A DNA stretch of 64,000 nt from Eledone cirrhosa. Its lineage: Eukaryota. The notes beneath the pieces were generated by a model. It was not told the DNA's origin, searched no databases, and saw nothing but the letters and a program-made list of their open reading frames with translations. The stretch spans positions 376,092,001 through 376,156,000 of the forward strand of contig OZ024740.1 of NCBI GenBank assembly GCA_964016885.1, written 5' to 3'. The translations under genes and the position numbers were made by a program. Shown one piece after another: positions 3,639 through 63,082 of this stretch (position 1 is the stretch's first letter; each line of letters opens with the position of its first letter).

Positions 3639-3788
3639 TACCATGTTAAACTTTATTTATACTATATATATATATATATATAAGTAAGGAAGTTTCCGTT
3701 GAAAATTGAAAAAGTCATAGGAGTGAAGAGTGCTCTATGTAAGTACCAGCGCAAAATTTAATGTATAATAAACAATACAATATAATTA

Positions 3789-3860
3789 TCTCATTACCAG
3801 AGGTTTTCCGAATAAGACGAATACGAAAAAAAAACGTTCTCATTCGTTTGTCAGACAAGG
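3789..3860 (-). ncRNA. Type I hammerhead ribozyme motif (decayed), 3' pLTR of Naiad-like A
   Basis: CCTTGT-CTGACAA-stem II (CGAATGAGAACG/CGTCTTATTCG)-GAAAACC-TCT-GG-TA-ATGAG; G8 changed to A. Confidence 0.7.
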
Positions 3861-4501
3861 CAATATAAAACATAGTGAAATAATTGGAAAGTCTCCTCAA
3901 GAAATGCAAAAATATATATAAATAAAAGTAATGCAAGAGATATATAAAATATATAAAAAATATAAGGAAATATAGTTAGATGTGTGTATATGTATGTATA
4001 TACACTCACAAATATACATGTGTATGTACAAATGCATGTGTATGGTGAAAATGTGTGCGTAAGTACATATATGAGGGCAAGTATATTTGTGTATATGTGA
4101 CCACAAATACGGATATAATATGAGTTGAAAGAGAAAATGATAATATAGTTGACACGCATCCAGATACAGGTGTTAGATACACTTACGAGTATGAAAGCAC
4201 GCGTATAAACACGCACACACGCGAGGTCACTTATATGCGGAAGATAAAGAGGGAAGGGAGTGTAATAGTTAAAAGAAAGTGTCATTCTCGATATATGTAT
4301 CAAAATGAAACAATATATAAGAATGAAAACATGTTTAAATGAAAGAGAAAATAGTCAAATAACACTAGAGAAAATAAAACAAACATAGGTACGCACGTAC
4401 ATACACATATATCTATAAAAAACATATAACTATAAAAAAAATATTTATACACGCAATACGTACAGACAAAAGCGCATGCATGCGTACATACATACACACG
4501 A

Positions 4502-4597
<96 letters not shown>

Positions 4598-5319
4598 TAT
4601 ATATCGCCCCATGTGTATCTAATCACACGTACGTACGCGACTATATATATATATATATACATATATACACATACACATACACGCCCATACATACATATAC
4701 ATATATACACACATACACACATACACATTCACGTACATTCACCCGCTTACACGTACACACATAAAAATAAGAGTGTCAAAAATATAGATGTAAAAAACAT
4801 AGTTATAAAAACACACATACACCCGCTTACACGTACACACATAAAATAAGGGTGTAAAAAACATAGATATAAAAACATACATACACACACATATATATAC
4901 ACGCACGCACGAGCACATTCCGAGGCGTTCGTGTACATATACAGAACTTATACACACGTAAAGACACTCAGACACATAGATACAGAGTATAAAGCAGCCT
5001 TATGAATAAATGATTACAAATATAAAATCGGCTGCGAAACAACAGAATATATCTGGGGTGGAAAACGCAAGTGACTAATGTAATTAGGTAGTAAAGAAAA
5101 TAGGGAAGTAAAATGTAGAATGTGAAGATATTAGGTACGTGAATCGAAGAGTAGGGGGAGGGGGGTTACTGGTGGATGTGAAGTAAAAAGGAAAATAAAA
5201 GTAAAATTGAAAATAAAGTTAAAAATGAAAGTTAATCAGAAGCAGAAGTCTGTAAAGCGAATAATTTAAGGAAAGTGAAGAATAAGAGCTTATGGAGGAT
5301 AAGTATCTGAAAGTGAGTT

Positions 5320-7278
5320 AAGTTTATATGAGCTGGAAAGCAACTGTGATTTCATGTGTGGGCAACTGGTGAAAATATCTGTTTTTTGTATTTAGGCAGG
5401 TTTTTGGTGATTTAAGGTTTTGAAAATCCAATATTTTTCACTTATGCAGAGTGTGCATCTTCTTGCTCCTCTTGCATATTCTTTAGATTGGTTCAAAATT
5501 GACCAATCCAATTTATATTGGATACCTTGGTCTTTCAAATCCCATATTCTGCTAGCCAGAGCTGTTGTGAATCTTTTATCTGGATGCCGGAAAGTTCCGA
5601 CATGTGAGTAATAACGCGTTTTGAATTTGTCTTGTGTCATACGCACATATCGTTTGCTGGTGGCTGGTTGGTTGTTGCTGATGGTTGTCACTTTAGCCGC
5701 ATATACAATGGCTTTGGTGTTGCATTTACCTTGTAATGGGCATTCACCTTTGACTCTACAGGAGCAATGTTGATGTTCTCTGGGTGATTTCTTATTGATG
5801 ATAACAGATTTAATAGGGGGACGGCAGGAGTAGCTAATTTTGACACAGTTTCTATTAAAGATCTTATAGTATACATGTGTTCTAGGGAAATGTTTATCTA
5901 AGAGCTCCAGGAATTGTTTGCCTACATTATTTTTAACTGCTAGAGAGTAGGGGTGTGAACCAGATTATTTTTCTTTTCCTATTTTTATGTTTAAGAGTTA
6001 GTATAGTTTGGTATGTACTTAATCGGTTCGCTAAATCCGCTATTTTGAAGGGCTTTATTATAGTAGGGGGATGCCTTATTGAAAATAGCTTCTGAGGAAG
6101 AGAGGGTGGAGATCCTACGGCTATTATTAGGGATAAGGTTTTTAAAAACTATAGGAGGATAGCAAGAGGCTTTATTTATATATTTTAAATTGTTATTAGG
6201 TTTATGGTATGGTTTATAAGAAGCAGTAGGCAAATCTAGGTTTATATCTAGAAAATTAATAATTGGAAAGGTTAGTGTCAATAGTAATTTTAAGATTAAA
6301 ACTAGCAAAGGTTTTTATTAACTCTTTCCTTAATCTATCTAAGTTATGGCCTATGGTTGTATGGGAAAGTATTAGACCATCGTCGCGATAAAGCCCCAAA
6401 ATATGGTTAGGGAATTTTTCTTTAAGTGTGTGTAGGAGGAATAAGCCGACTAAATCACAAACATCAGCACTGTCAAAAGAGCCCATTGAGACATCGAATG
6501 GGCTCTCTTGGTTAGATATGTTTACCCAAGTGTCATTATCAGTAAAGAGTAGAGTGTTTCTAGCGTGCAAGATGACATTCTCTTCAATATCAGAGATATT
6601 GGTAAACTTTCTAGCGAAATTTAAAGCTTTCGCTAAAAGAGTCTGAGTGATAGACGGGTAGAAATCTACAATGTCAAATTGGGTGAATCTAGAACTATTT
6701 TTATCTTTAATTTTATTAAACCAATGTACTACGGAAGAGCTATTTATCCATTGGAGTAATTTAGACTTATTTCTAATGTGTGTGTTTATATTATTTAACA
6801 TTTTTTTGCTTGCAAGACCAATATCAGTCTTAGCAGGGTTGATTAATCTACAACTAGGACGATTAATAAAGTCAGGTTTGTGATCTTTAAGGGTGATATA
6901 TGCATTACGTTTAGCAAGTTTTTGTGTCCTATTATCTATTTTTAAAGAACTAGCTAATTCTTTAGCTTCCTTATTTATATTATGATACGTGTTTATATTA
7001 GCTATTTGGTATTTAGAGGTGATGTTATCTATTAATAGTTGGTCGTGTAAATTATTATTAACTTCGTATAAGTTTTTAGTTTGTCGGAGAAAATGAACTT
7101 ATTTTTAGAAGATTTGAATATAGAAATATCATTAGATAGTTTAGATTGAAAAGGGTTAGAGTACTTACGAAAATTGATATTGTTGATTAGATTAACTAAG
7201 TCTAGATCAAAAGTGGTCATATCTTTTACTCTTTGCGGGTATTTATGAGTTTTTATGTCAAAATGTTCCGTAGAATAC
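5320..7278 (-). pseudogene. Frameshifted PLE RT-GIY-YIG polyprotein (Naiad-like A)
   Basis: QFDIVDFYPSI, FDVSMGSFDSADVCDLVG, GLYRDDGL, NFLDINLDL, YKPYHKPN, CSC-x-CPL-x-C knuckle, RCTLCISEK. Confidence 0.92.
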
Positions 7279-7650
7279 GAAAATGCTGATAGACAAAGTA
7301 GAGAAGGTTGTTAAAAGAATGAGATGGAAAGCTCTGATTCTCGATGGACAATTTAACACGGATTCTACGGAACATTTATCAACTCATATTATATCCGTAT
7401 TTGTGGTCACATATACACAAATATACTTGCCCTCATATATGTACTTACGCACACATTTTCACCATACACATGCATTTTTTCATACATACATATGTATATT
7501 TGTGAGTGTATATACATACATATACACACATCTAACTATATTTCCTTATATTTTTTATATATTTTATATATCTCTTGCATTACTTTTATTTATATATTTT
7601 TTTGCATTTCTTAAGGAGACTTTCCAAATATTTCACTATGTTTTATATTA

Positions 7651-7720
7651 CCTTGTCCGACGAACGAATGAGGACGTTTTTTTCGTATTCGTCTTATTCG
7701 GGAAACCTCTGGTAATGAGG
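7651..7720 (+). ncRNA. Type I hammerhead ribozyme motif (decayed), inverted pLTR of Naiad-like A
   Basis: Stem I CCTTGT/ATGAGG; core CCGACGA (U4C); stem II CGAATGAGGACG/CGTCTTATTCG; GAAA-CC-TCT-GG-TA. Confidence 0.72.
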
Positions 7721-7746
7721 TAATTATATTGTATTGTTTATTATAC

Positions 7747-7808
<62 letters not shown>

Positions 7809-7812
<4 letters not shown>

Positions 7813-8375
7813 TTGTAATATAATGAAACGAAATTTCATTTCTCACTCTTTTACGACACTTACTTAAATGTAAGTATGTATGTATACGTACATACATATA
7901 TGTATACAGACGTACAGTAGCATGCATATATATATATATATATACATACAGGTACACATATATATATGTACGTATCAGTTTAGCGGACGTTTATTATAAC
8001 GCCCGCTTTGTCCGTTTGTAAACAAACAGACAGCCTCATTTATGCCGTACGTGTTAAGGCAACCACGTCACCTTTTTGTAAAAAACTGACACTGGAACGA
8101 TGTACTAGTTTCCAGCTTCTTAGCTATCATCAGCACCGTATACCCTTCTGCCAGATAGTTGAACGTTCGAAAGTATATACTTTCCTTATGAAAATTAGCG
8201 GCTGAGAAGCCTAATTTTTAATAACGAGTGAGTTCAGTCGGCCAGGCGTACCGAAAACGATAAGTTGTAATATAATGAAACGAAAGTTCATTTCTCACTC
8301 TTAGTACGGCACTTACTTAAATGTAAGTATGTATGTATACGTACATACATATATGTATACAGACGTACAGTAGCA

Positions 8376-8466
<91 letters not shown>

Positions 8467-8614
8467 GCAGGTACACATATATATATGTACGTATCAGTTT
8501 AGCGGACGTTTATTATAACGCCCGCTTTGTATGTATATATATATATATATATATATATGCATGCTACTGTACGTCTGTATACATTTATGTATGTACGTAT
8601 ACATACATACTTAC

Positions 8615-8615
<1 letters not shown>
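7809..8615 (-). mobile_element. Non-coding 452-bp tandem unit (~1.5 copies plus short inverted piece) carrying an HHR; retrozyme-like or PLE pLTR-like
   Basis: TAAGTTGTAATATAATGAAACGAAA starts at 7809 and 8261. Inverted fragment at ~8557-8615. Bounded by (TA)n. Confidence 0.7.
8097..8139 (-). ncRNA. Intact minimal type I hammerhead ribozyme
   Basis: ACGGTG-CTGATGA-TAGCT-AAGA-AGCTG-GAAA-CTAG-TA-CATCGT: complete core, stems I and II, palindromic CTAG helix III, GUA cleavage site. Confidence 0.88.
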
Positions 8616-8665
<50 letters not shown>

Positions 8666-8884: not shown

Positions 8885-9922
8885 AGAGTAATAGGAACGA
8901 GTAGGACCCAGGTTAATACACTTAACATGAATGTGCGAACATTGGTTTCAATGTACAATTATAACCACCACGTTGCCATAATAAGGATTATATATATATA
9001 TAATCCTTATAATGGCGACGTGGTGAGGATATAGCACTGTATAGATATTTAATGCAGAAATGGCTTCTACAGGACTAGAAATTTTCATTCGGAGGAAATC
9101 ATCAGGAAGTGTATGGGGGAGGGGGTAGTGTGTATGATGTATGTGCGTATGCATGCATACATACATAGTTATACTCATGTTTAGTTACTAAATTAGTTGT
9201 TTCTTTTGATGGCCCGGTCGCAAGAACATTTGCCTTAGCAAATATATTACATTTTACTCTTGTGTTTCTACACATTTATATTACTCCTGTATACGCTGTT
9301 ACCGAGAAATATCGATATATCGCTTGTTGAGCCGTTATGTAAAACTATGTTAGGTTTGACAAGTTAGATTGTGTTACAACTTCGATAGGCGAAGTAGTAT
9401 GGGAAAGGGTGGTGCAAAATCGCAACTATTTCGCCTTGCTTTTATTTCTTGTCATAATGTTAAATCGGACATTTCACCAGATGTCTTGCCACAGTTCTAT
9501 AAACAACGTTGATTCAAACGAAGTGCAAGCAAAACTAGCAGTAGAAGAAACAAACATAATAATCTAGTAGATATATACAGTTTGACATACTCGTTTGTTT
9601 GTCAATTTAAATTCCATCATTTTGATGTAGACTTTTATATATTCCATTACAGTTATGACAGGAACCTTGAACATACTGCAGAATAGGACTTTTCAAATTA
9701 GGTTTTTTCACGTGTATGAACACAAACGTGCACTCAAGCTCATACACTCAGACACTCACAACGCGCACACACACACACAACATGTATATACTAGTAGAAT
9801 TGATGAATGTGAACATGAGTATTTGATACTATATTCCACATAAAATATTCTTTGTATGGCTAAGTTTCATCTGTCTACTCATAGATTCATCTGTCAGATC
9901 CTCCTGTAAGAAAACAGATTCA

Positions 9923-10020
9923 ATTCCAGAGAATGATCCTCACCACGTTGCCATAATAAGGATTATATATATATATATAATCCTTATTATGGCGACGTGG
10001 TGAGGATCATTCTCTGGAAT
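9923..10020. repeat. Near-perfect palindrome centred on (TA)n; shorter copy at ~8966-9030
   Basis: ATTCCAGAGAATGATCCTCACCACGTTGCCATAATAAGGAT-(TA)n-ATCCTTATTATGGCGACGTGGTGAGGATCATTCTCTGGAAT. Confidence 0.85.
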
Positions 10021-20442: not shown

Positions 20443-22552
20443 TATATAACTTCTACTATTTCTGACAGAAGATGTTATGGACTGGATCCCATTAGGTAGG
20501 AGAATTTAGCTCTTGAAGTTTATTTTAACTAGTTGTGCCGAATTTATCATTTGGCTAAAATAGTATCGAACGTCTGAATGTGTGCAGTTGTGTCTTCGTA
20601 ATGTTGTCCATTTAGTTATGTATACTATTTAGCAATATGTTTCGTACATTTTATGAATCTTTACATTAAAGGTTACATGAATATACTTTATTTTCGCGGC
20701 TGTGTTTTGTAGCATATATATAATAAACTATTTGTACGAGTTATTTTTCTTCTTAGCATGTTTGATTTAAAATAATTGATATTTTCGTAGAACTCAGAGA
20801 AAATTTCCAAACTTTCCTAATTATACCTTAAAACTCTATTCAATATATTTGATGTGCGTCTTATTTTTAAAATATTTGTAAAAATTTCTATTTAATTGCC
20901 TCATAATAATTTCTTAACACTTTTATGCTTTTAATATTTTACGTATGTTGATAGATTTCGCATAGGCCATAATTATTGAAGGTCTTGATTGATTAGTTCT
21001 TTACACAATTGTACATTGAGCAATGTCTGGAATTATGTTTACATCAAATTTATTCAATAACGATTTAAAACCGGAATGGGTGTAAAAAGATTAAAACGCA
21101 TAATATTCTGATCAGAATTTTAACATTTATTTGCAGTCGTTTCTATCAAATATGACTAAAAACATGTTTAATTCGTGGGTTATGGCCCCGATATTTGTAG
21201 ATATATATTGACATAAGCAATTCTATTATATCACTGAAATAAAGATTATAGGCTATACAAATTAATGATAGAAGGCTATAAACATAAAACCAACATACCA
21301 AGTCTAGTATTGATATCTAATACAGAAAACGATAGAATGTTGAGGTGTGTTTTCATTTGATACACCTGCTTCTGACTAGTAGATATTTTAACGAACCTGA
21401 AATAATGAAAGAGAAAATTAATGCGACGGAATTGCAATTGAAAAGGATAAGTGTATTGAGTACATATATCTACTGAAACTTTTCGACATTATAAACAACT
21501 AATGTATTCAGTGCAAATAGTAAACTACTTTACTTCTTTATGAATGATATTACGTATCAAGCATTTTTCATAAACGGCATCATGAATCAACTAAGATTCC
21601 ACATTGACATCAGTGAAAATATGTGCTAATGGCATGTAAAGCCATGCGATTGGTTGTAACAATTCTACGTGTATGCTACCTATCTTTGTCAGTAGATGCG
21701 CATGCCAGCTACTCGATCTGAAACCTTGTGCGACTGAAAGTATACACTTAAGCATATCCCTGATCATCCACCAATGTCGCAAGTGGTCCTAGTTGTTTCC
21801 TAAGAGCTGCGCTATATTAGATCAGGCCTGGAGAAAATCTTCATAAGTACAACGGATGTTGAATCGCACAGCACTGAAGCTCTCAAATTGCAATCGATCT
21901 TATTATTTCCTCCTGTTTCAAAAAGCCAGGATTCCACATCAACACTTCTTTCGCTGATATTAAACCCAAATTGTTGCAACTTACTTTCTTTGGGCAATGC
22001 CTGTGAACATCCTCAACAGCCACGCCAGCTACAACTATAATGGTTACTTTTATACTGTTGGGACAACAGTAGCAAATCAGTTTCCACAAGCATGCTGATA
22101 TTTCACAGTCAGCCATGGCCTACCATAAGGTCATTTTATCTGTCTCCAAATTTTCTCACTCCCTTCCTTCATACTTTCACACTTCCTAGAGCTCTATCTC
22201 AGGCTCTTTATCTCTCTGTTTGGTTCTCTACTTCTCTCCTTCTCTCTCTGTCTATCTGTCTCACACACACACTAAAACTCATTGAGCTAGGCTAACGAAG
22301 AATTCCATTCTGTGAAAGTAAGCTTATAATGTAAATATGTTATATTTAGAAATTAACCACCAAGATTGTGATACAAATATTCCCTGCAGATATATTATAA
22401 TTATAATTTTTTTGTCATAGAATAACAAATTGTTTCTCTACGTATAATAACTGCTCTCATTTAATCATATCTTCAGCGATACCTTATATTGTAATTAATG
22501 TTGTGTTAATGTAAATTTACAGTTTTAGTACTTTTACAGTATATTATATTAT

Positions 22553-22978
22553 TGTGGATTGGCGGTATCGGTAGAGGGTCGGACGCCATGCTTTGTGGAT
22601 TGGCAGTATCGGTAGAGGGTCGGACGCCATGCTTTGACACATAGAGTTACGGTCCTTGCCATTCTGAATTTAAATCCCGCCGAGGTTAATTTTGCCTTTC
22701 ATCCTTACTGGGTCGATAAAATAAAGTACCAGTAATGCACTGGGTAATTGCTGGCCTTGTGCCAACAGTAGAAACAATTATATTATTGTAGATTGGCAGT
22801 ATCGGTAGGGAGTCAGATGCCATGCTTTCCAGCATAGTTACGTCCCTTAACGATCTGAGTTCAAATCCCACTGAGGTTGACTTTGCCTTTCATCCTTACG
22901 GGGTCGATAAAATAAAGTACCAGTAATGCACTGGTATTTGCTGGCATTGTGCCAAAAAGTAGAAACAATTATATTATT
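22553..22978 (+). mobile_element. Two tandem tRNA-derived SINE copies (first with duplicated head)
   Basis: A-box-like TGGCAGTATCGG, B-box-like GAGTTCAAATCC, core TTTGCCTTTCATCCTTACGGGGTCGATAAAATAAAGTACCAG; third copy at 52201. Confidence 0.8.
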
Positions 22979-28841: not shown

Positions 28842-30769
28842 TCTATATATATAAAACTGTGGTTGTCTGTCTGTCTATCGATTTTTGGCACACATCTCCT
28901 CTTAGAATCTCTCACGGAATTGCACCGAAATTGCTATACTTGTACATTGAGCCCTAGCGAAGACATCAGAAAAAAAATAATTTCAAATTGACCCGCCCTA
29001 TCTGACGAAATCGAATATAATGTATCGATTTTTGAGCGTAAGTGATCAGTTATTTCCCTTTGTTCTGTTTACATTGAGCGTCTGCGTGCAAAAATTAAAA
29101 AAATTACGCTGGCTTTCTCAGCGTTTAAAATGACATTAACACAATAATTTTTACTTGAAAACAAGTCTATTTAAAGACTACGTAAAACAAGCAAATATTC
29201 CGTAAAAAAAAGCAAAAATTATATAAGTTTATTTAAAATATATGTATCTGTAAATTTCGTTAGGCGTGCAGTCAGTTTTATATATATAGATGATACACAA
29301 TAATATCCTCTATGAGGTCACTAAACCTGCTAGAAACAGCAGCTAACTCTCCCTCATATCACACCACTCCCTACTGTCTTAAATTTAGAAAACACATATC
29401 CTCTATGAGGTTACTAAACCTGCTAGAAACAGCAGCTAACTCTCCCTCATATCACACCACTCCCTACTGTCTTAAATTTAGAAAACACATATCCTCTATG
29501 AGGTTACTAAACCTGCTAGAAACAGCAGCTAACTCTCCCCCATATCATACCCCTCCCTACTGTTTTAAATTTAGAAAACATATCTTCTATGAGGTCACTA
29601 AACCTGCTAGAAACAGCAGCTAACTCTCCCTCATATCACACCCCTCCCTACTGTCTTAAATTTAGAAAACATATCCTCTATGAGGTCACTAAACCTGCTA
29701 GAAACAGCAGCTAACTCTCCCCCATATCACACCCCTCTCTACTGTCTTAAATTTAGAAAACATATCTTCTATGAGGTCACTAAACCTGCTAGAAACAGCA
29801 GCTAACTCTCCCTCATATCACACCACTCCCTACTGTCTTAAATTTAGAAAACACATATCCTCTATGAGGTTACTAAACCTGCTAGAAACAGCAGCTAACT
29901 CTCCCTCATATCACACCAGTCCCTACTGTCTTAAATTTAGAAAACACATATCCTCTATGAGGTTACTAAACCTGCTAGAAACAGCAGCTAACTCTCCCCC
30001 ATATCATACCCCTCCCTACTGTCTTAAATTTAGAAAACATATCTTCTATGAGGTCACTAAACCTGCTAGAAACAGCAGCTAACTCTCCCTCATATCACAC
30101 CCCTCCCTACTGTCTTAAATTTAGAAAACATATCCTCTATGAGGTCACTAAACCTGCTAGAAACAGCAGCTAACTCTCCCCCATATCACACCCCTCTCTA
30201 CTGTCTTAAATTTAGAAAACATATCTTCTATGAGGTCACTAAACCTGCTAGAAACAGCAGCTAACTCTCCCTCATATCACACCACTCCCTACTGTCTTAA
30301 ATTTAGAAAACACATATCCTCTATGAGGTCACTAAACCTGCTAGAAACAGCAGCTAACTCTCCCTCATATCACACCACTCCCTACTGTCTTAAATTTAGA
30401 AAACACATATCCTCTATGAGGTCACTAAACCTGCTAGAAACAACAGCTAACTCTCCCTCATATCACAACCCTCCCTACTGTCTTAAATTTAGAAAACACA
30501 CAGACAACCATGCAGAACAACTCCATCGCAGCTCTGTTGTTCGGCTGGCATCGTCTACTCGCGTGTTGCGCAAGTACTGTGAAACAATAAATTTCAACAC
30601 TTTTTTGCACAGAGATAATATCCATAGGCGAAACTACAATTGTCACTGCTGGCGCAGCTCATGCTTCCAGGTCTGCAATTCATTCACCCAGTGCCTGGCA
30701 GACAAAAAAGTGCTGCAACCTAACTTTGGTAACTTAATGACCCCGAGCAACGCCGGGCTTTAATGCTAG
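28842..30769 (+). mobile_element. Non-autonomous Helitron containing a tandem array
   Basis: A|TCTATATATATAAAACTGTGGTTGTCTGTCTG 5' end; 3' CCCGAGCAACGCCGGG hairpin followed by CTAG|T; inserted between A and T with no TSD. Confidence 0.82.
29304..30500 (+). repeat. 93/91-bp minisatellite, ~13 units, 459-bp (5-unit) higher-order repeat
   Basis: ATGAGGTYACTAAACCTGCTAG recurs at 29312, 29405, 29498, 29589, 29680, 29771 ... 30416; the variant pattern recurs every 459 bp. Confidence 0.95.
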
Positions 30770-51714: not shown

Positions 51715-52200
51715 CTGCTTATATATGTATATATATATATCCCTTCTGCTTATATAGATATATATATATTCTCCACACATTTTATATACGCATACATACA
51801 CGTATATATATATTTTCCATACAAACACATTGTATACCTCCTACATATATATTTTTTTTTACATATACATATACATATAAATATATCATACACATATCCA
51901 TACATATATACACACACATATACACATACATATACATACATATTTATCTCACACATACGTACGTGCATACATACATACATACATAAATATACACACACAT
52001 ATATGCACACATACGCATAAACATGTACACATATATCTGTATACCTACAGGTACATATATAAAAAAAGTTAACCAGGAATCTCTAAAATTCTTCCCACCT
52101 AAGTTAACAAAGATCTTACTGGATCTACCAAATCATAATATATAATATTATATTATATTATAATATAACATGATATATTATATTATATTATAACATTAAA

Positions 52201-52385
52201 GGTTGGGTGAATTGACAGTATCGGTAGAGAGTCGGAGGCCTTACTTTTACGCAGAGTCATGGCCCTTGCCATTCTAAGTTCTATTCCCGCCGAGGTTAAC
52301 TTTGCCTTTCATCCTTATGATGTCGATAAAATAAAGTACCAGTAATATACTGATAATTGCTGGCCATGTGCCAAAAGTAGAAATA
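52201..52385 (+). mobile_element. SINE (same family as 22.5-23.0 kb) with ~19-bp target-site duplication
   Basis: Core TTTGCCTTTCATCCTT...GTCGATAAAATAAAGTACCAG; ATTATATTATAACATTAAA at 52182-52200 and 52386-52404. Confidence 0.85.
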
Positions 52386-52562
52386 ATTATATTATAACAT
52401 TAAATCATGAAAATGTTTAACACATTGAAGTCATTCTTTTCCTTTTCCTTCAAATATATATATGTGTGTGTGTGTATGTATATATATATATATGTATACA
52501 TAAAATATTAAAAGAATAATGAATAAAACAATGAAACAGTTCCTTATATTAAACAAAAAAAG

Positions 52563-52716
52563 TTCATTATTTAACGATCGTTTCTAGGATATATATGTGT
52601 TAGAATTGGCATGTATATTCAACAGATCTATGTACAAAATTATACAAAATTATACAAACTATCAAAATTAAATATACATACCAACACATATATATGCCGT
52701 CTTCAGAAATAATGAA
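52563..52716 (-). ncRNA. Type I hammerhead with long stem II (Naiad-like C)
   Basis: 10-bp stem I TTCATTATTT/AAATAATGAA; CTGAAGA; stem II CGGCATATATATGTGTTGG/CTAACACATATATATCCTA; GAAA-CGATCG-TT. Confidence 0.82.
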
Positions 52717-53275
52717 ATATATTTATTGATAATAACAACAATTCAAAATTACAGGTCTGTTTGGGAACAGAGTTCAAATTGACCAATGAAAACACAAAAA
52801 GTTTATACAGTTAGGTGTGTGTATATATGTAAGTAACTTCGTTCACAGATATGCATAAAAATATATGTTCACATGCATACGCATGCCGAAAAGATGTATG
52901 TAAATACAAAAATTCAGGGCTAATGTCTCTGTATGTTTATAATCTACAGATAAAATACATATACGCATATAAACATATAAATATAAAAATAAATATATAC
53001 ACATTCATATACTCACACATATACATACATTCACACACACACGCGCGTATACGCATAAACATGCACACAACCACGAACATACATACACACACACACCCCC
53101 ACACACATATATGTGTATATACTATTATCATAAGCATATGGACATTAATGCGCGCACATAAACACTGCCACACATATTTAGATCCAGATACAGAAAGTAG
53201 GTGGGGGGGAGAAGAGGTAAGTATTTACTGGTGTCAGCAAACTGCCTATTTATAAATGTATCTATAAATTTAGAA

Positions 53276-53415
53276 ATAAAAAGAAAAAGAAAAAGAAAAA
53301 GAAAAAGAAAAAGAAAAAGAAAAAGAAAAAGAAAAAAAGAAAAAGAAAAAGAAAAAGAAAAAGAAAAAGAAAAAGAAAAAGAAAAAGAAAAAGAAAAAGA
53401 AAAAGAAAAAGAAAA
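53276..53415. repeat. (GAAAAA)n hexanucleotide microsatellite
   Basis: Direct reading. Confidence 0.95.
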
Positions 53416-53465
53416 ATATATATATATATATAAACAAGTAAAATATAAAATATACATCGATATAC

Positions 53466-53532
<67 letters not shown>

Positions 53533-53723
53533 CATATACATACACATATACATAAACACATACATACACATACATATACATACACATACCATATATATAC
53601 ACATACACATACACACACGCATACATATAGAGACACATACATATACACATATAAATACATAGACATATACATATATACACACATATATATATATACACAC
53701 ATACATATATACATACATTCACA

Positions 53724-53780
<57 letters not shown>

Positions 53781-53943
53781 TCTATACACATATATAAACA
53801 CACTCATGTATATACACATATACACATACATACCCACACATATATATATATACACACATACACACACACATATACACATGCACATATACAAAGATATATA
53901 TATATATATACACACACATATATAATAAATATATATATATATA

Positions 53944-54006
53944 CAAGGGCGGTGCCCCAGCATGGCCTCAGCCGGATGGCTGAAACAGGTAAAAGAGTAA
54001 AAGAGT
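53944..54006 (+). mobile_element. SINE/LINE 3'-tail fragment (octopus-type)
   Basis: GGCGGTGCCCCAGCATGGCC...CTGAAACAGGTAAAAGAGTAAAAGAGTA with a short tandem tail, recalled as typical of Octopus retroposons; not verified by search. Confidence 0.6.
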
Positions 54007-54322
54007 ATATATATACATATATATACACATATACATATACATACATATATATACATACTCATACATAGACATACATATATACACACACACATACACACAT
54101 ACATATACGCATATATACACATACATACACATCCATGTATGCGTATACACATACAAACACAACCACACGTTCACACAACTCAGACATACATAAATAAAGG
54201 GATATACATACACATATATACATATATAAATAGAGATATATATACACATATAAATATATACACACATACACACACACACACATATACATACACACACATA
54301 CATACATACATATATATACACA

Positions 54323-54362
<40 letters not shown>

Positions 54363-54438
54363 TATAAAAATAAAGAAATAAAATAAATAAATAAATTAAT
54401 ACACACAGTCAGACAAATATGCACACACATACATATAC

Positions 54439-54509
<71 letters not shown>

Positions 54510-54558
54510 CATATACATACACATATATATACACATACACACATCAACTACAAATATG

Positions 54559-54589
<31 letters not shown>

Positions 54590-54703
54590 TCACATATACA
54601 TGCGCATATACGTACATATATACACATAGAGACATATACACATAGACGTATTTATGCGCATACATATACATACACACATATACCCACATAAATACATAGA
54701 TAC

Positions 54704-54772
<69 letters not shown>

Positions 54773-55422
54773 ATCATACACCCTTATTTACATGCGCACA
54801 TATGTATTTTTATACTCACATACAAACACCCAAACATACATACCTACCTACATATACATACATACATCCACGCTTACAAATACAAATAATAATAGGGGGA
54901 GAGGGGAGGGGATTATAGTAAATATAGGTTTCAAGAAACATAGAATATTAATCTGCATTTAGATCATAATATGTGTTTACATAGTAGTTTCAGTATTAGA
55001 AAATGTAAGAAAGAAGGCAAAATTATGCATTTTAATATAAGTAGACTATTAATTATATGTTAACTAAATTAAAGATAGTTAATATATTGATTTCTAAGGT
55101 GTATACTACTTAGGTTTATAATATTTGAAGCGGAATTTTGAAGTTAAATAGTAGTAGAATATTAATTATAGTATAACTAAATTAAAATTATTAACGTTAT
55201 GGTATCAATATTAGGAAATGAATTTAGTAATAGGGAAAAAAAAAACAAATAAAGTATTACATCGGTAGTAGAATATAAATTATAGGTTAACTAAATTAAA
55301 AATTATATATTAATTTCTATAGTATATGTTAATTAGGTTTATAATAATTAAAACAGATATTGTATTTTATCTATAGTAGAATATAATTATAGGTAAACAA
55401 AAATTAAAATTAATATATACAC

Positions 55423-55507
<85 letters not shown>

Positions 55508-55973
55508 CATATTTTTTCAAAAATTGCAAAGAATATATTAACTAGGTATACATCCAAAACCTATCTCAGTCTATGATTACATGACACTCTGCAATCCATC
55601 TGTATTAGGATTTTAATTTTAAGCCAATTAAATTAAATTTTTAGGTTAACCAAATTAAAACCAAATTATAAATATATTTCTAAATTGTACATTAATTAGG
55701 TCTATAATATTAAAAAATATTTCTCTGTCATTGAATACGCGATATTTTGTTATATTTTATCTGTAAAGGCATTTTAATAAAAGGTTAAATAAATTAAAAT
55801 TAATCTATAAATTAATTTACAAAGTATATATTAGTAATATTTAAAAGTTTTTTCACAATTTATGATTACACAATATTTTATAATCTCATCTGTAGTAGAA
55901 TTTTAATTAAATTAAATGTATAGGTTAACTAACATTTAAATTAAATTATATATTAATTTCTAAAATAATGTTA

Positions 55974-58016: not shown

Positions 58017-61838
<3,822 letters not shown>

Positions 61839-61839
61839 G

Positions 61840-63082
61840 ATAAATCTACCAAGAGTTTACGGTAGTGTCCAATCCGTATGAAGAACTCAATGTATTCCGG
61901 ATATCATGGAAAGAAGAAATGTAATGAAAAATCACTTTCGGTGAAAGATAAACGGTATACAGAGTCAAGATAAAATATTAAACAAATAATGAATAAACAA
62001 TTCCTTATATTAACCAAAAAAAGTTCATTATTTAACGATCGTTTCTAGGATATATATGTGTTAGAGTTGGCATGCATATTCAACAGATCTATGTACAAAA
62101 TTATACAAAATTATACAAACTATCAAGATTAAATATACATACCAACACATATATACGCCGTCTTCAGAAATAATGAAATATATTTATTGATAATAACAAC
62201 AATTCAAACTTTCAGGTCCGTTTGGGAACAAAATTGACCAATGAAAATACAAAAGGTTTAATGCCGTTCGGTGTGTGTATATACATGTAATAACCCATAC
62301 ACATATTTTACAAAAATGTATGCACAACCTGTATACTCATACAAAAAGGATGGATGCAAATACAAAATTTCAAGGTTAATGTCTCTGTAAGTTTATAATG
62401 CACAGATAAGATGCGTATAGATACATAAATATGAAATAAATGTATACACAAATTTTCATACTAACACATATCCGTACAATCACACATACACGCGCGTATA
62501 TGCATAAACATACACATAAACTACAAACATACAAACACACACACACACCACCACTCACATATATATATGTGGATATAAAATCCTAAGCACATGGATATTA
62601 ATTCACTCACATAAACACTGGCACACACATTTAGATAAAGATACAGAAATTAGGTGGGAGAGGGGGGAGAGGTCAGTATTCAACGGTTTGGGCTGCCTGC
62701 TTAATATAGATGTATCTATAAACTAAGAAAATAAAAAATAATAATAAATAATAAATAATAAATAAACATTAAAAAGGAAAGAAAAGAAAAAGAAAAAAGA
62801 AAAAAGAAAAAAGAAATATATCAAGAAAATATATATATATACATATATATATATATCTATATATATATATATTTATATATACATATACATACATATATAC
62901 ATACATACACATACATACTCACACACACACACACATATACATATACACATACACATATACAAACACATACATACGTATACACACATCCACACTTAGAACA
63001 TAACATACACACACATATATAAACATATACATATATACACATAGATACAAATACACACATACATATAAATACACATATATAT

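What the first reader, a model, noticed from the sequence alone, without database searches (positions are those of the whole stretch)
7809..8615. 452-bp structured non-coding tandem unit with a perfect minimal hammerhead: candidate cephalopod retrozyme
Seen: the unit starts at 7809 and again at 8261, with no coding remnant and an intact HHR at 8097-8139 (minus strand). Further hairpins: GCGGACGTT/AACGCCCGC, TGTCCGTTTGT/ACAAACAGACA, GAAAGTATATACTTTC, AAAATTAG-(C)-GGCT/AGCC-TAATTTT. It is inserted in (TA)n with a short inverted piece. Established: metazoan non-LTR retrozymes are tandem units of a few hundred bp with minimal type I HHRs that yield circular RNAs. Inference: a more-than-unit-length insertion copied from a circular RNA by a PLE RT.
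Basis: partly seen in the sequence, partly recalled or inferred. Interest (0 to 1): 0.75.

Follow-up and report, generated by a model that had tools for sequence, protein, structure and literature searches.

The report
Octopus-type hammerhead retrozyme, Penelope-style insertions
This 452-base protein-free repeat carries a hammerhead-ribozyme motif present about 25,000 times in this animal genome, and its back-to-back copies in TA microsatellites were likely written from an RNA, probably a circle, by the enzyme of a Penelope-like jumping gene, a known kind of element whose self-cutting and RNA circle are untested here.

Summary
The window has one full unit (7809-8260), a 5'-truncated second unit (8261-8530) and an inverted arm (8528-8616) between TA tracts, with a type I hammerhead at 8097-8139 (minus strand). 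The ribozyme core has 25,499 exact matches genome-wide, in several young subfamilies with compensatory base changes. None of 112 ten-kb loci has the unit as the terminal repeat of an ORF. The decayed Hydra-clade Penelope element next door has its own, different end. This is a new member of the metazoan non-LTR retrozymes. Arm 3' ends fall at three TA-like sites inside the unit, none at the ribozyme cut site, and all 14 two-orientation clusters are head-to-head. That fits two-primer, Penelope-type reverse transcription of a circular (or multimeric) RNA. Its closing helix II pair is a mutation private to this copy. This copy has only one ribozyme, so it cannot release a unit-length RNA alone. 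Cleavage, circles and the helper family are untested. This scan has noted the same kind of element before, on other DNA of this and other genomes.

The parts
7809..8260 (-). Full 452-bp unit; its RNA-sense 3' end (..ACAACTTA) abuts the TA tract at 7809
   Evidence: 94-95% identical copies elsewhere; 4.3% from the majority of 50 aligned copies over 300 nt
8261..8530 (-). Second, 5'-truncated unit (sense positions ~250-452); lacks the hammerhead
8528..8616 (+). Inverted second arm, head-to-head with the first; its 3' end is at the family's second preferred site (..CATACTTACAT|TA)
8097..8139 (-). Type I hammerhead: helix I ACGGUG/CAUCGU, core CUGAUGA..GAAA, helix II AGCU/AGCU with tetraloop, palindromic helix III ACUAGU, predicted cut after GUA (8103)
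   Evidence: family counts
8078..8164 (-). Bulged extension of helix I (8144-8164 pairing with 8078-8095 in the family consensus; this copy has private changes near 8078-8084)
7983..8032 (-). Two hairpins (7983-8006, 8009-8032) with compensatory changes between subfamilies
   Evidence: helix 8, 4 of 9 pairs changed on both sides; helix 7, 2 of 5
8169..8218 (-). Two further hairpins (8169-8184, 8191-8218); the first is partly deleted in the 422-bp subfamily
7927..7944 (.). Internal (TA)n at the tip of a long hairpin; length varies between units (8380-8463 in copy 2); a third 3'-end site and a target for nested insertions
7749..7810 (.). Left target (TA)31 tract, shared with the end of the neighbouring Hydra element
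8620..8659 (.). Right target TA tract
3683..7749 (-). Separate neighbour, not part of the element: decayed Hydra-clade Penelope-like element (RT + GIY-YIG at ~5270-7277, inverted 5' piece 7277-7749 on +) with its own terminal repeat
   Evidence: motifs as in PMC8557442 section 11
7647..7724 (+). The Hydra element's own hammerhead-like motif (CCGACGA core, long helix II), about 25 nt from its 3' end

Best explanation
This is one decayed, single-ribozyme copy of a protein-free tandem element with about 25,000 hammerhead motifs in this genome, likely transcribed from arrays, predicted to self-cut into unit-length RNA that would circularise, and likely copied back into TA microsatellites by the reverse transcriptase-endonuclease of a Penelope-like element, most likely of the Hydra clade. 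Shown: family size, absence of an ORF, tandem and head-to-head arms, TA targets, three preferred 3' ends away from the cut site, structure-preserving changes between subfamilies. Inferred: (1) arrays with two or more ribozymes are transcribed (promoter not found); (2) two hammerheads pair through the palindrome ACUAGU and cut; (3) a host ligase closes the monomer, as shown for coral, mussel and axolotl retrozymes; (4) the helper cuts both strands of a (TA)n tract, each free end anneals to a UA-rich site in the RNA, the enzyme runs for a fraction of a unit to several units, and the two cDNAs are joined head to head.
For: Counts: 25,499 and 12,086 pattern matches, controls 0. No ORF link: in 112 ten-kb loci, the 20 loci with a same-strand PLE ORF end within 2.6 kb upstream of a unit all have (TA)>=9 in between, most with that PLE's own ribozyme; 1 of 29 other copies of the neighbouring Hydra family has a 40-nt unit scrap nearby; 0 of 29 other unit loci (24 independent places) hold that family's DNA within 1.5 kb. 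Anatomy: first 100 of 12,086 hits form 60 clusters: 37 single, 9 tandem, 14 two-orientation, all 14 head-to-head. Of 205 arms, 3' ends lie at the unit junction (87), a second TTA site ~60 nt upstream (62), the internal TA tract (27), elsewhere (18), unresolved (11), none at the cut site; 157 arms span at least one cut site and 34 span two or more, so the template was not a cut linear monomer. One template per insertion: 6 of 17 two-orientation loci share a rare variant across arms against 52 of 2,211 between-locus pairs; 21 of 26 multi-unit loci have one subfamily haplotype; 8 of 8 units at C2:44.95 Mb are identical over 285 nt in both orientations. Structure: 7 of 48 pairs change on both sides, 36 such cells against 13.7+-3.3 shuffled, including G.U/U.G/A-U in helix I. 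Helper: CUGANGA-U[helix II]U-GAA matches 14 of 25 Hydra-clade families and 0 of 6 Chlamys/PLE-X families in File S2 of PMC8557442 (counted by eye); almost all Hydra families insert in (TA)n; Hydra copies with long open frames exist here.
Against: No cleavage, transcript or circle was observed. The double-hammerhead fold is 6.6 kcal/mol above the dimer's minimum and no better than two monomeric folds (-206.2 vs -206.6). Only 1 of 9 predicted Xenopus retrozyme dimers cleaved in vitro (bioRxiv 10.64898/2026.07.22.740005). 11 of 17 two-orientation loci share no rare variant across arms, and 16 of 26 multi-unit loci have none common to all units. A-to-G excess on the ribozyme strand is not significant (80 vs 61, p=0.18; shared within a locus 15 vs 6, p=0.08). 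The pair-type measure does not exceed shuffles (23 vs 23.6), the structure was derived from the same alignment, and related subfamilies inflate the counts. No DNA similarity to 9 PLE terminal regions (best E 0.008, 22 nt), so the helper is assigned by ribozyme style and target only; Neptune-like families here also sit in TA tracts and File S2 does not cover that clade.
Confidence: 0.6

Rival explanations
1. Same element and helper, but the template is an uncut multimeric transcript of a tandem array; the ribozyme is weak or only frees the RNA from flanking sequence, and no circle is needed.
For: Internal priming and multi-unit arms follow equally; long donor arrays exist (81 full units near C2:60.57-60.61 Mb); active fold not favoured by prediction; many loci lack variants shared by all units.
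Against: Identical units in both arms of young insertions and locus-wide rare variants in 10 of 26 loci suggest a one-unit bottleneck; the large array is heterogeneous; core retained across subfamilies up to 16-20% apart.
Confidence: 0.25
2. The copies are 5'-truncated ends (solo pLTRs) of a rare autonomous Penelope-like element not sampled here.
For: Anatomy matches PLE insertions (PMC8557442 passages); Xenopus retrozymes resemble pLTRs; only 112 ten-kb loci were examined out of many thousands.
Against: Units join directly end to start (100 tandem junctions outside the large array; 118 of 125 unit starts follow a unit end), which an ORF-bearing RNA would not give; 0 of 112 loci. Ancestry from a pLTR remains possible.
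Confidence: 0.07
3. A satellite spread at the DNA level (extrachromosomal circles, unequal crossing over), with the ribozyme a passenger.
For: The C2 array shows repeating unit variants at ~4-kb spacing, so local DNA expansion occurs; strand-specific editing signal not significant.
Against: Dispersed short insertions with fixed 3' ends at TA, scattered 5' ends and strict head-to-head polarity are strand-asymmetric and match autonomous PLE copies in the same genome; structure-preserving changes.
Confidence: 0.05

Closest known systems
Metazoan non-LTR retrozymes (Cervera and de la Pena 2020, PMC7229834; Li, Clavereau, Pollet 2026, bioRxiv 10.64898/2026.07.22.740005)
   Same: Non-coding tandem units with one canonical type I hammerhead each, low GC, thousands of copies, dimers to large multimers, highly self-paired predicted monomer (70% paired), coexisting with PLEs.
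   Different: Unit 422-540 nt against ~170-400 nt reported for invertebrate circles (within the 51-972 bp range of the 2026 survey); internal (TA)n; U.U at the base of helix II; two-armed insertions and TA-site 3' ends not described in the parts read; circles untested. The window copy fails the 2026 'active' criterion (two consecutive complete ribozymes).
Hydra clade of C-terminal EN+ Penelope-like elements, including Hydra-1_Obim (Craig et al. 2021, PMC8557442)
   Same: (TA)n targeting, partial tandems with inverted 5'-truncated arms, canonical hammerhead with U..U flanking helix II in 14 of 25 families.
   Different: No ORF; no detectable sequence similarity to local Hydra ends; ribozyme lies ~295 nt from the main 3' end against a few tens of nt in local Hydra families A, C and D; helix III shorter.
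[quoted passage not shown]
   Same: Type I topology, predicted to act as dimers.
   Different: Those lack helix III and have 7-8-bp helix II and 4-5-bp helix I; this one has 6-bp helix I, 4-bp helix II and palindromic helix III, the paper's canonical form.
Non-autonomous Chlamys PLEs such as MRC1 (passage in PMC8557442)
   Same: Non-coding PLE passengers with multicopy head-to-tail insertions.
   Different: Those generally share 3'-end sequence with autonomous families, and the paper reports canonical hammerheads in only two Chlamys subclades.

Membership tests
Metazoan non-LTR retrozyme | Short head-to-tail tandem units, dimers to multimers | tested here: met
   spacings 464-541 bp; 422 bp in another subfamily
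Metazoan non-LTR retrozyme | One canonical type I hammerhead per unit | tested here: met
   Sequence and pairing; Rfam models did not score it
Metazoan non-LTR retrozyme | No protein-coding capacity, not attached to an RT ORF | tested here: met
   sample of 112 ten-kb loci
Metazoan non-LTR retrozyme | At least two consecutive complete ribozymes (family level) | tested here: met
   34 of 205 arms span two or more cut sites; the window copy itself has one
Metazoan non-LTR retrozyme | Self-cleavage | not testable with these tools
   Fold prediction only
Metazoan non-LTR retrozyme | Expressed as monomeric circular RNA | not testable with these tools
   No RNA run was available to lay
pLTR of an autonomous PLE | Continuous with an RT-EN ORF on the same strand | tested here: not met
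   0 of 112 loci; neighbour has its own end
Minimal PLE hammerhead (min-HHR) | No helix III, long helix II, short helix I | tested here: not met
PLE-type insertion | Defined 3' ends, variable 5' truncation, partial tandems, inverted 5' arm, microsatellite target | tested here: met
Passenger of Hydra clade specifically | Shared terminal sequence or demonstrated trans-mobilisation | tested here: inconclusive
   Ribozyme style and target fit; no DNA similarity to 9 PLE termini
Hydra clade (neighbouring ORF) | RWK and DKT motifs, CxCX5C linker, C-terminal GIY-YIG, (TA)n target, ribozyme at the end | tested here: met
   RWK and CSCRVKGEC in window frames, DKT in sister copies; no tree built

The most novel reading that the evidence does not exclude
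The genome records rolling-circle reverse transcription of a ribozyme-made RNA circle by a Hydra-clade Penelope enzyme: both ends of a cut (TA)n tract prime inside the circle at any of three UA-rich sites, giving head-to-head arms copied from one molecule, and the circle carries its own (TA)n target. With thousands of young copies and nearly intact helpers in the same genome, this would be a ready substrate-enzyme pair for the unresolved Penelope and retrozyme mechanism.
Probability: 0.45. Interest if true: 0.68.

Novelty: new member of a known kind. Interest (0 to 1): 0.45.

Why it matters
How animal retrozymes get back into DNA, and how Penelope elements make tandem and inverted insertions, are stated as open in the papers read. 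A 450-nt protein-free substrate with defined priming sites and candidate helpers makes both testable in vitro. The family is also a sizeable genome component: 25,499 motifs at about 450 bp is roughly 11 Mb, about 0.4% of the assembly (my estimate). The window copy itself is an ordinary decayed insertion.

Tried and rejected
Neighbouring Hydra ORF as parent: rejected, it has its own terminal repeat and ribozyme. The ~4-kb spacing of exact hits on C2 looked like full-length elements but is a long tandem array with variant units. The unit/Hydra-B junction at the end of that array is a nested insertion: the rest of the unit follows the PLE's 3' end. A similar head-to-head junction with a Neptune-like ORF in L143 is unexplained. 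An apparent pile-up of seven 5' ends at position 156, beside the cut site, is an artefact of my 240-nt extension limit; no alignment starts there. The '78% old copies' are a separate young 422-bp subfamily. Rfam: nothing relevant. No RNA holder listed; three contig sets of unknown kind show only that the repeat is abundant. Metagenome scan: 0. A pattern for a relative with a different helix II gave 1 unrelated-looking hit. RNA-editing signature: inconclusive. tRNA-like promoter: the ARAGORN step on L001-L030 printed nothing; A/B-box-like words seen by eye are not kept across subfamilies (consensus recalled). Paper searches for retrozyme+cephalopod, hammerhead ribozyme+octopus, Penelope+octopus+genome+non-autonomous and retrozyme+hammerhead+Penelope listed no cephalopod retrozyme paper; the library lacks most subscription papers and Repbase, and the supplement of PMC7229834 and the preprint's tables could not be read. 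A last batch of 20 loci was not obtained, so the ORF-link sample stays at 112.

Full report
Observation. The unit, its partial second copy, the inverted piece, the four hairpins and the hammerhead are at the stated places. On the ribozyme (minus) strand the insertion reads: truncated unit 8530-8261, full unit 8260-7809, then (TA)31; a short arm on the plus strand, 8528-8616, ends at another TA tract. The motif has a 6-bp helix I, intact CUGAUGA and GAAA, a 4-bp helix II and the palindrome ACUAGU before the GUA cut site. In Cervera and de la Pena 2014 (PMC4209133, parts 1-2 of 4 read) this is the canonical metazoan type I form predicted to work as a dimer, not the minimal form. Rfam does not score it and the motif alone folds no better than shuffles. 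The case rests on the family.

Family. A DNA search gave 3,324 candidates, 40 scored, the 39 non-self full-length ones at 94-95%. Exact patterns give 413 copies of this subfamily's 40-mer, 12,086 with a free tetraloop and 25,499 with the variable core position and a few neighbours also free; controls 0. The window's own 40-mer is unique: it has a private change that turns the family's U.U at the base of helix II into U-G, and the copy is 4.3% from the majority of 50 aligned segments whose median is 1% (these were best hits, so biased to young). Clustering 266 distinct sequences gave subfamilies 4-20% apart, including a young 422-bp one. Across 20 representatives 95.8% of cells pair and 7 of 48 pairs change on both sides, one in helix I and six in two downstream hairpins. 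The structure came from the same alignment, many representatives came from loci picked by a ribozyme pattern, and relatedness inflates counts, so this is supportive, not proof.

Is it a pLTR? The DNA to the left is a decayed RT plus GIY-YIG ORF on the same strand with the RWK, DKT and CxCX5C marks of the Hydra clade (PMC8557442 section 11). It has thousands of relatives (3,779 candidates) and its own terminal repeat with a different ribozyme-like motif. Only 1 of 29 other copies has a unit scrap nearby, and 0 of 29 other unit loci carry its DNA. In 112 ten-kb loci centred on unit copies, 55 have some PLE protein hit. In the 20 where an ORF end lies upstream on the same strand within 2.6 kb, a (TA)>=9 tract always intervenes. 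Units join end to start: 118 of 125 unit starts outside the large array follow a unit end. Co-location is explained by a shared TA target. A rare parent cannot be excluded from this sample.

Insertion anatomy. Among the first 100 of 12,086 hits, 60 clusters: 37 single, 9 tandem, 14 with both orientations, all head-to-head. I mapped 205 arms from 116 segments, leaving out the large C2 array, arms at segment edges and arms under about 90% identity. 3' ends: 87 at the junction, 62 at a second TTA site about 60 nt upstream, 27 at the internal TA tract, 18 elsewhere, 11 unresolved, none at the cut site; 126 of the 149 at the first two sites are followed by TA. The window shows both main sites, one per arm. 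5' ends are scattered; an apparent cluster at 156 is an artefact. 157 arms run through a cut site and 34 through two or more, so the template was circular or an uncut multimer. Rare variants are shared across opposite arms in 6 of 17 loci (one duplicated locus counted twice) against 52 of 2,211 between-locus pairs, and eight units at one locus are identical over 285 nt. An A-to-G strand bias suggested by earlier scan notes is only a trend here. One array spans about 43 kb with 81 full units scored and nested PLE insertions.

Mechanism. Shown: the DNA footprint. From established work: coral, mussel and axolotl retrozymes self-cleave and accumulate as circles, and PLEs are proposed as helpers (PMC7229834 passages and sections 14, 17); Xenopus retrozymes resemble pLTRs, but 1 of 9 cleaved in vitro (bioRxiv 10.64898/2026.07.22.740005, parts 1-3 of 5). 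Inferred: dimer cleavage, ligation to a circle, a cut in palindromic (TA)n, two priming events at UA-rich sites, joining of the cDNAs. The active dimer fold is reachable but not favoured by prediction. The window copy has one ribozyme and could not release a monomer alone.

Helper. The U-flanked short helix II matches 14 of 25 Hydra-clade families in File S2 of Craig et al. 2021 (supplement part 2 and search hits; main-text passages) and one local Hydra family. Local Neptune-like elements (label recalled from motifs, no tree) have ribozymes without helix III but also sit in TA. No sequence similarity links the unit to nine PLE termini. Hydra is the better bet, not shown.

Novelty. A new member of a known kind. 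Four searches listed no cephalopod retrozyme paper; PMC10886601 (passages) was irrelevant; the supplement of PMC7229834 and the preprint's tables were not visible and may list such elements. The host was not identified; 'octopus-type' rests on repeat content and a by-eye likeness of the neighbour to Hydra-1_Obim. Earlier notes of this scan describe what look like the same family and similar anatomy on other DNA; I saw them after my mapping was done, they are unchecked, and they are not counted as support. Interest 0.45.

Noticed in passing
window 7647-7724 (+); sister copies L032-L060: The Hydra neighbour's terminal ribozyme-like motif usually has CCGACGA in place of CUGANGA and an unusually long helix II (24 hits in fetched loci, against 4 with CTGACGA).
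   Followed up: partly
G000:C2 ~60,568,700-60,612,100 (L092-L096): About 43-kb head-to-tail array of this family with variants recurring at ~4-kb spacing, a nested Poseidon-like piece, and a Hydra copy with a 768-codon open frame inserted at a unit's TA tract.
   Followed up: partly
L063 1950-2900 (-): A second, unrelated 310-bp tandem hammerhead family with identical units, U.U at helix II and palindrome ACGCGU, inserted in this unit's internal TA tract.
   Followed up: partly
window 9060-9113 (-) and 8960-9030: Degenerate hammerhead-like core and a TA-centred palindrome repeated at 9937-10007.
   Followed up: no
window 12256 (-), 14886 (+), 40775 (-): Minimal hammerheads matching the ends of two Neptune-like PLE families.
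   Followed up: partly
L225, L226, L227, L230: A young Hydra family whose ribozyme core reads CAGAAGA, with U.U flanking helix II.
   Followed up: no
L143 ~5340; L217 ~4790; L235 ~5270: Units joined directly to 5'-truncated or broken PLE ORF sequence without a pure TA tract; could be nested insertions with deletion or template-switch chimeras.
   Followed up: partly
window 29303-30500; 22552-22978; 52135-55512 vs 60227-62119: 93-bp tandem array (13 copies), a 191-bp SINE-like dimer, and what looks like a long inverted duplication.
   Followed up: no
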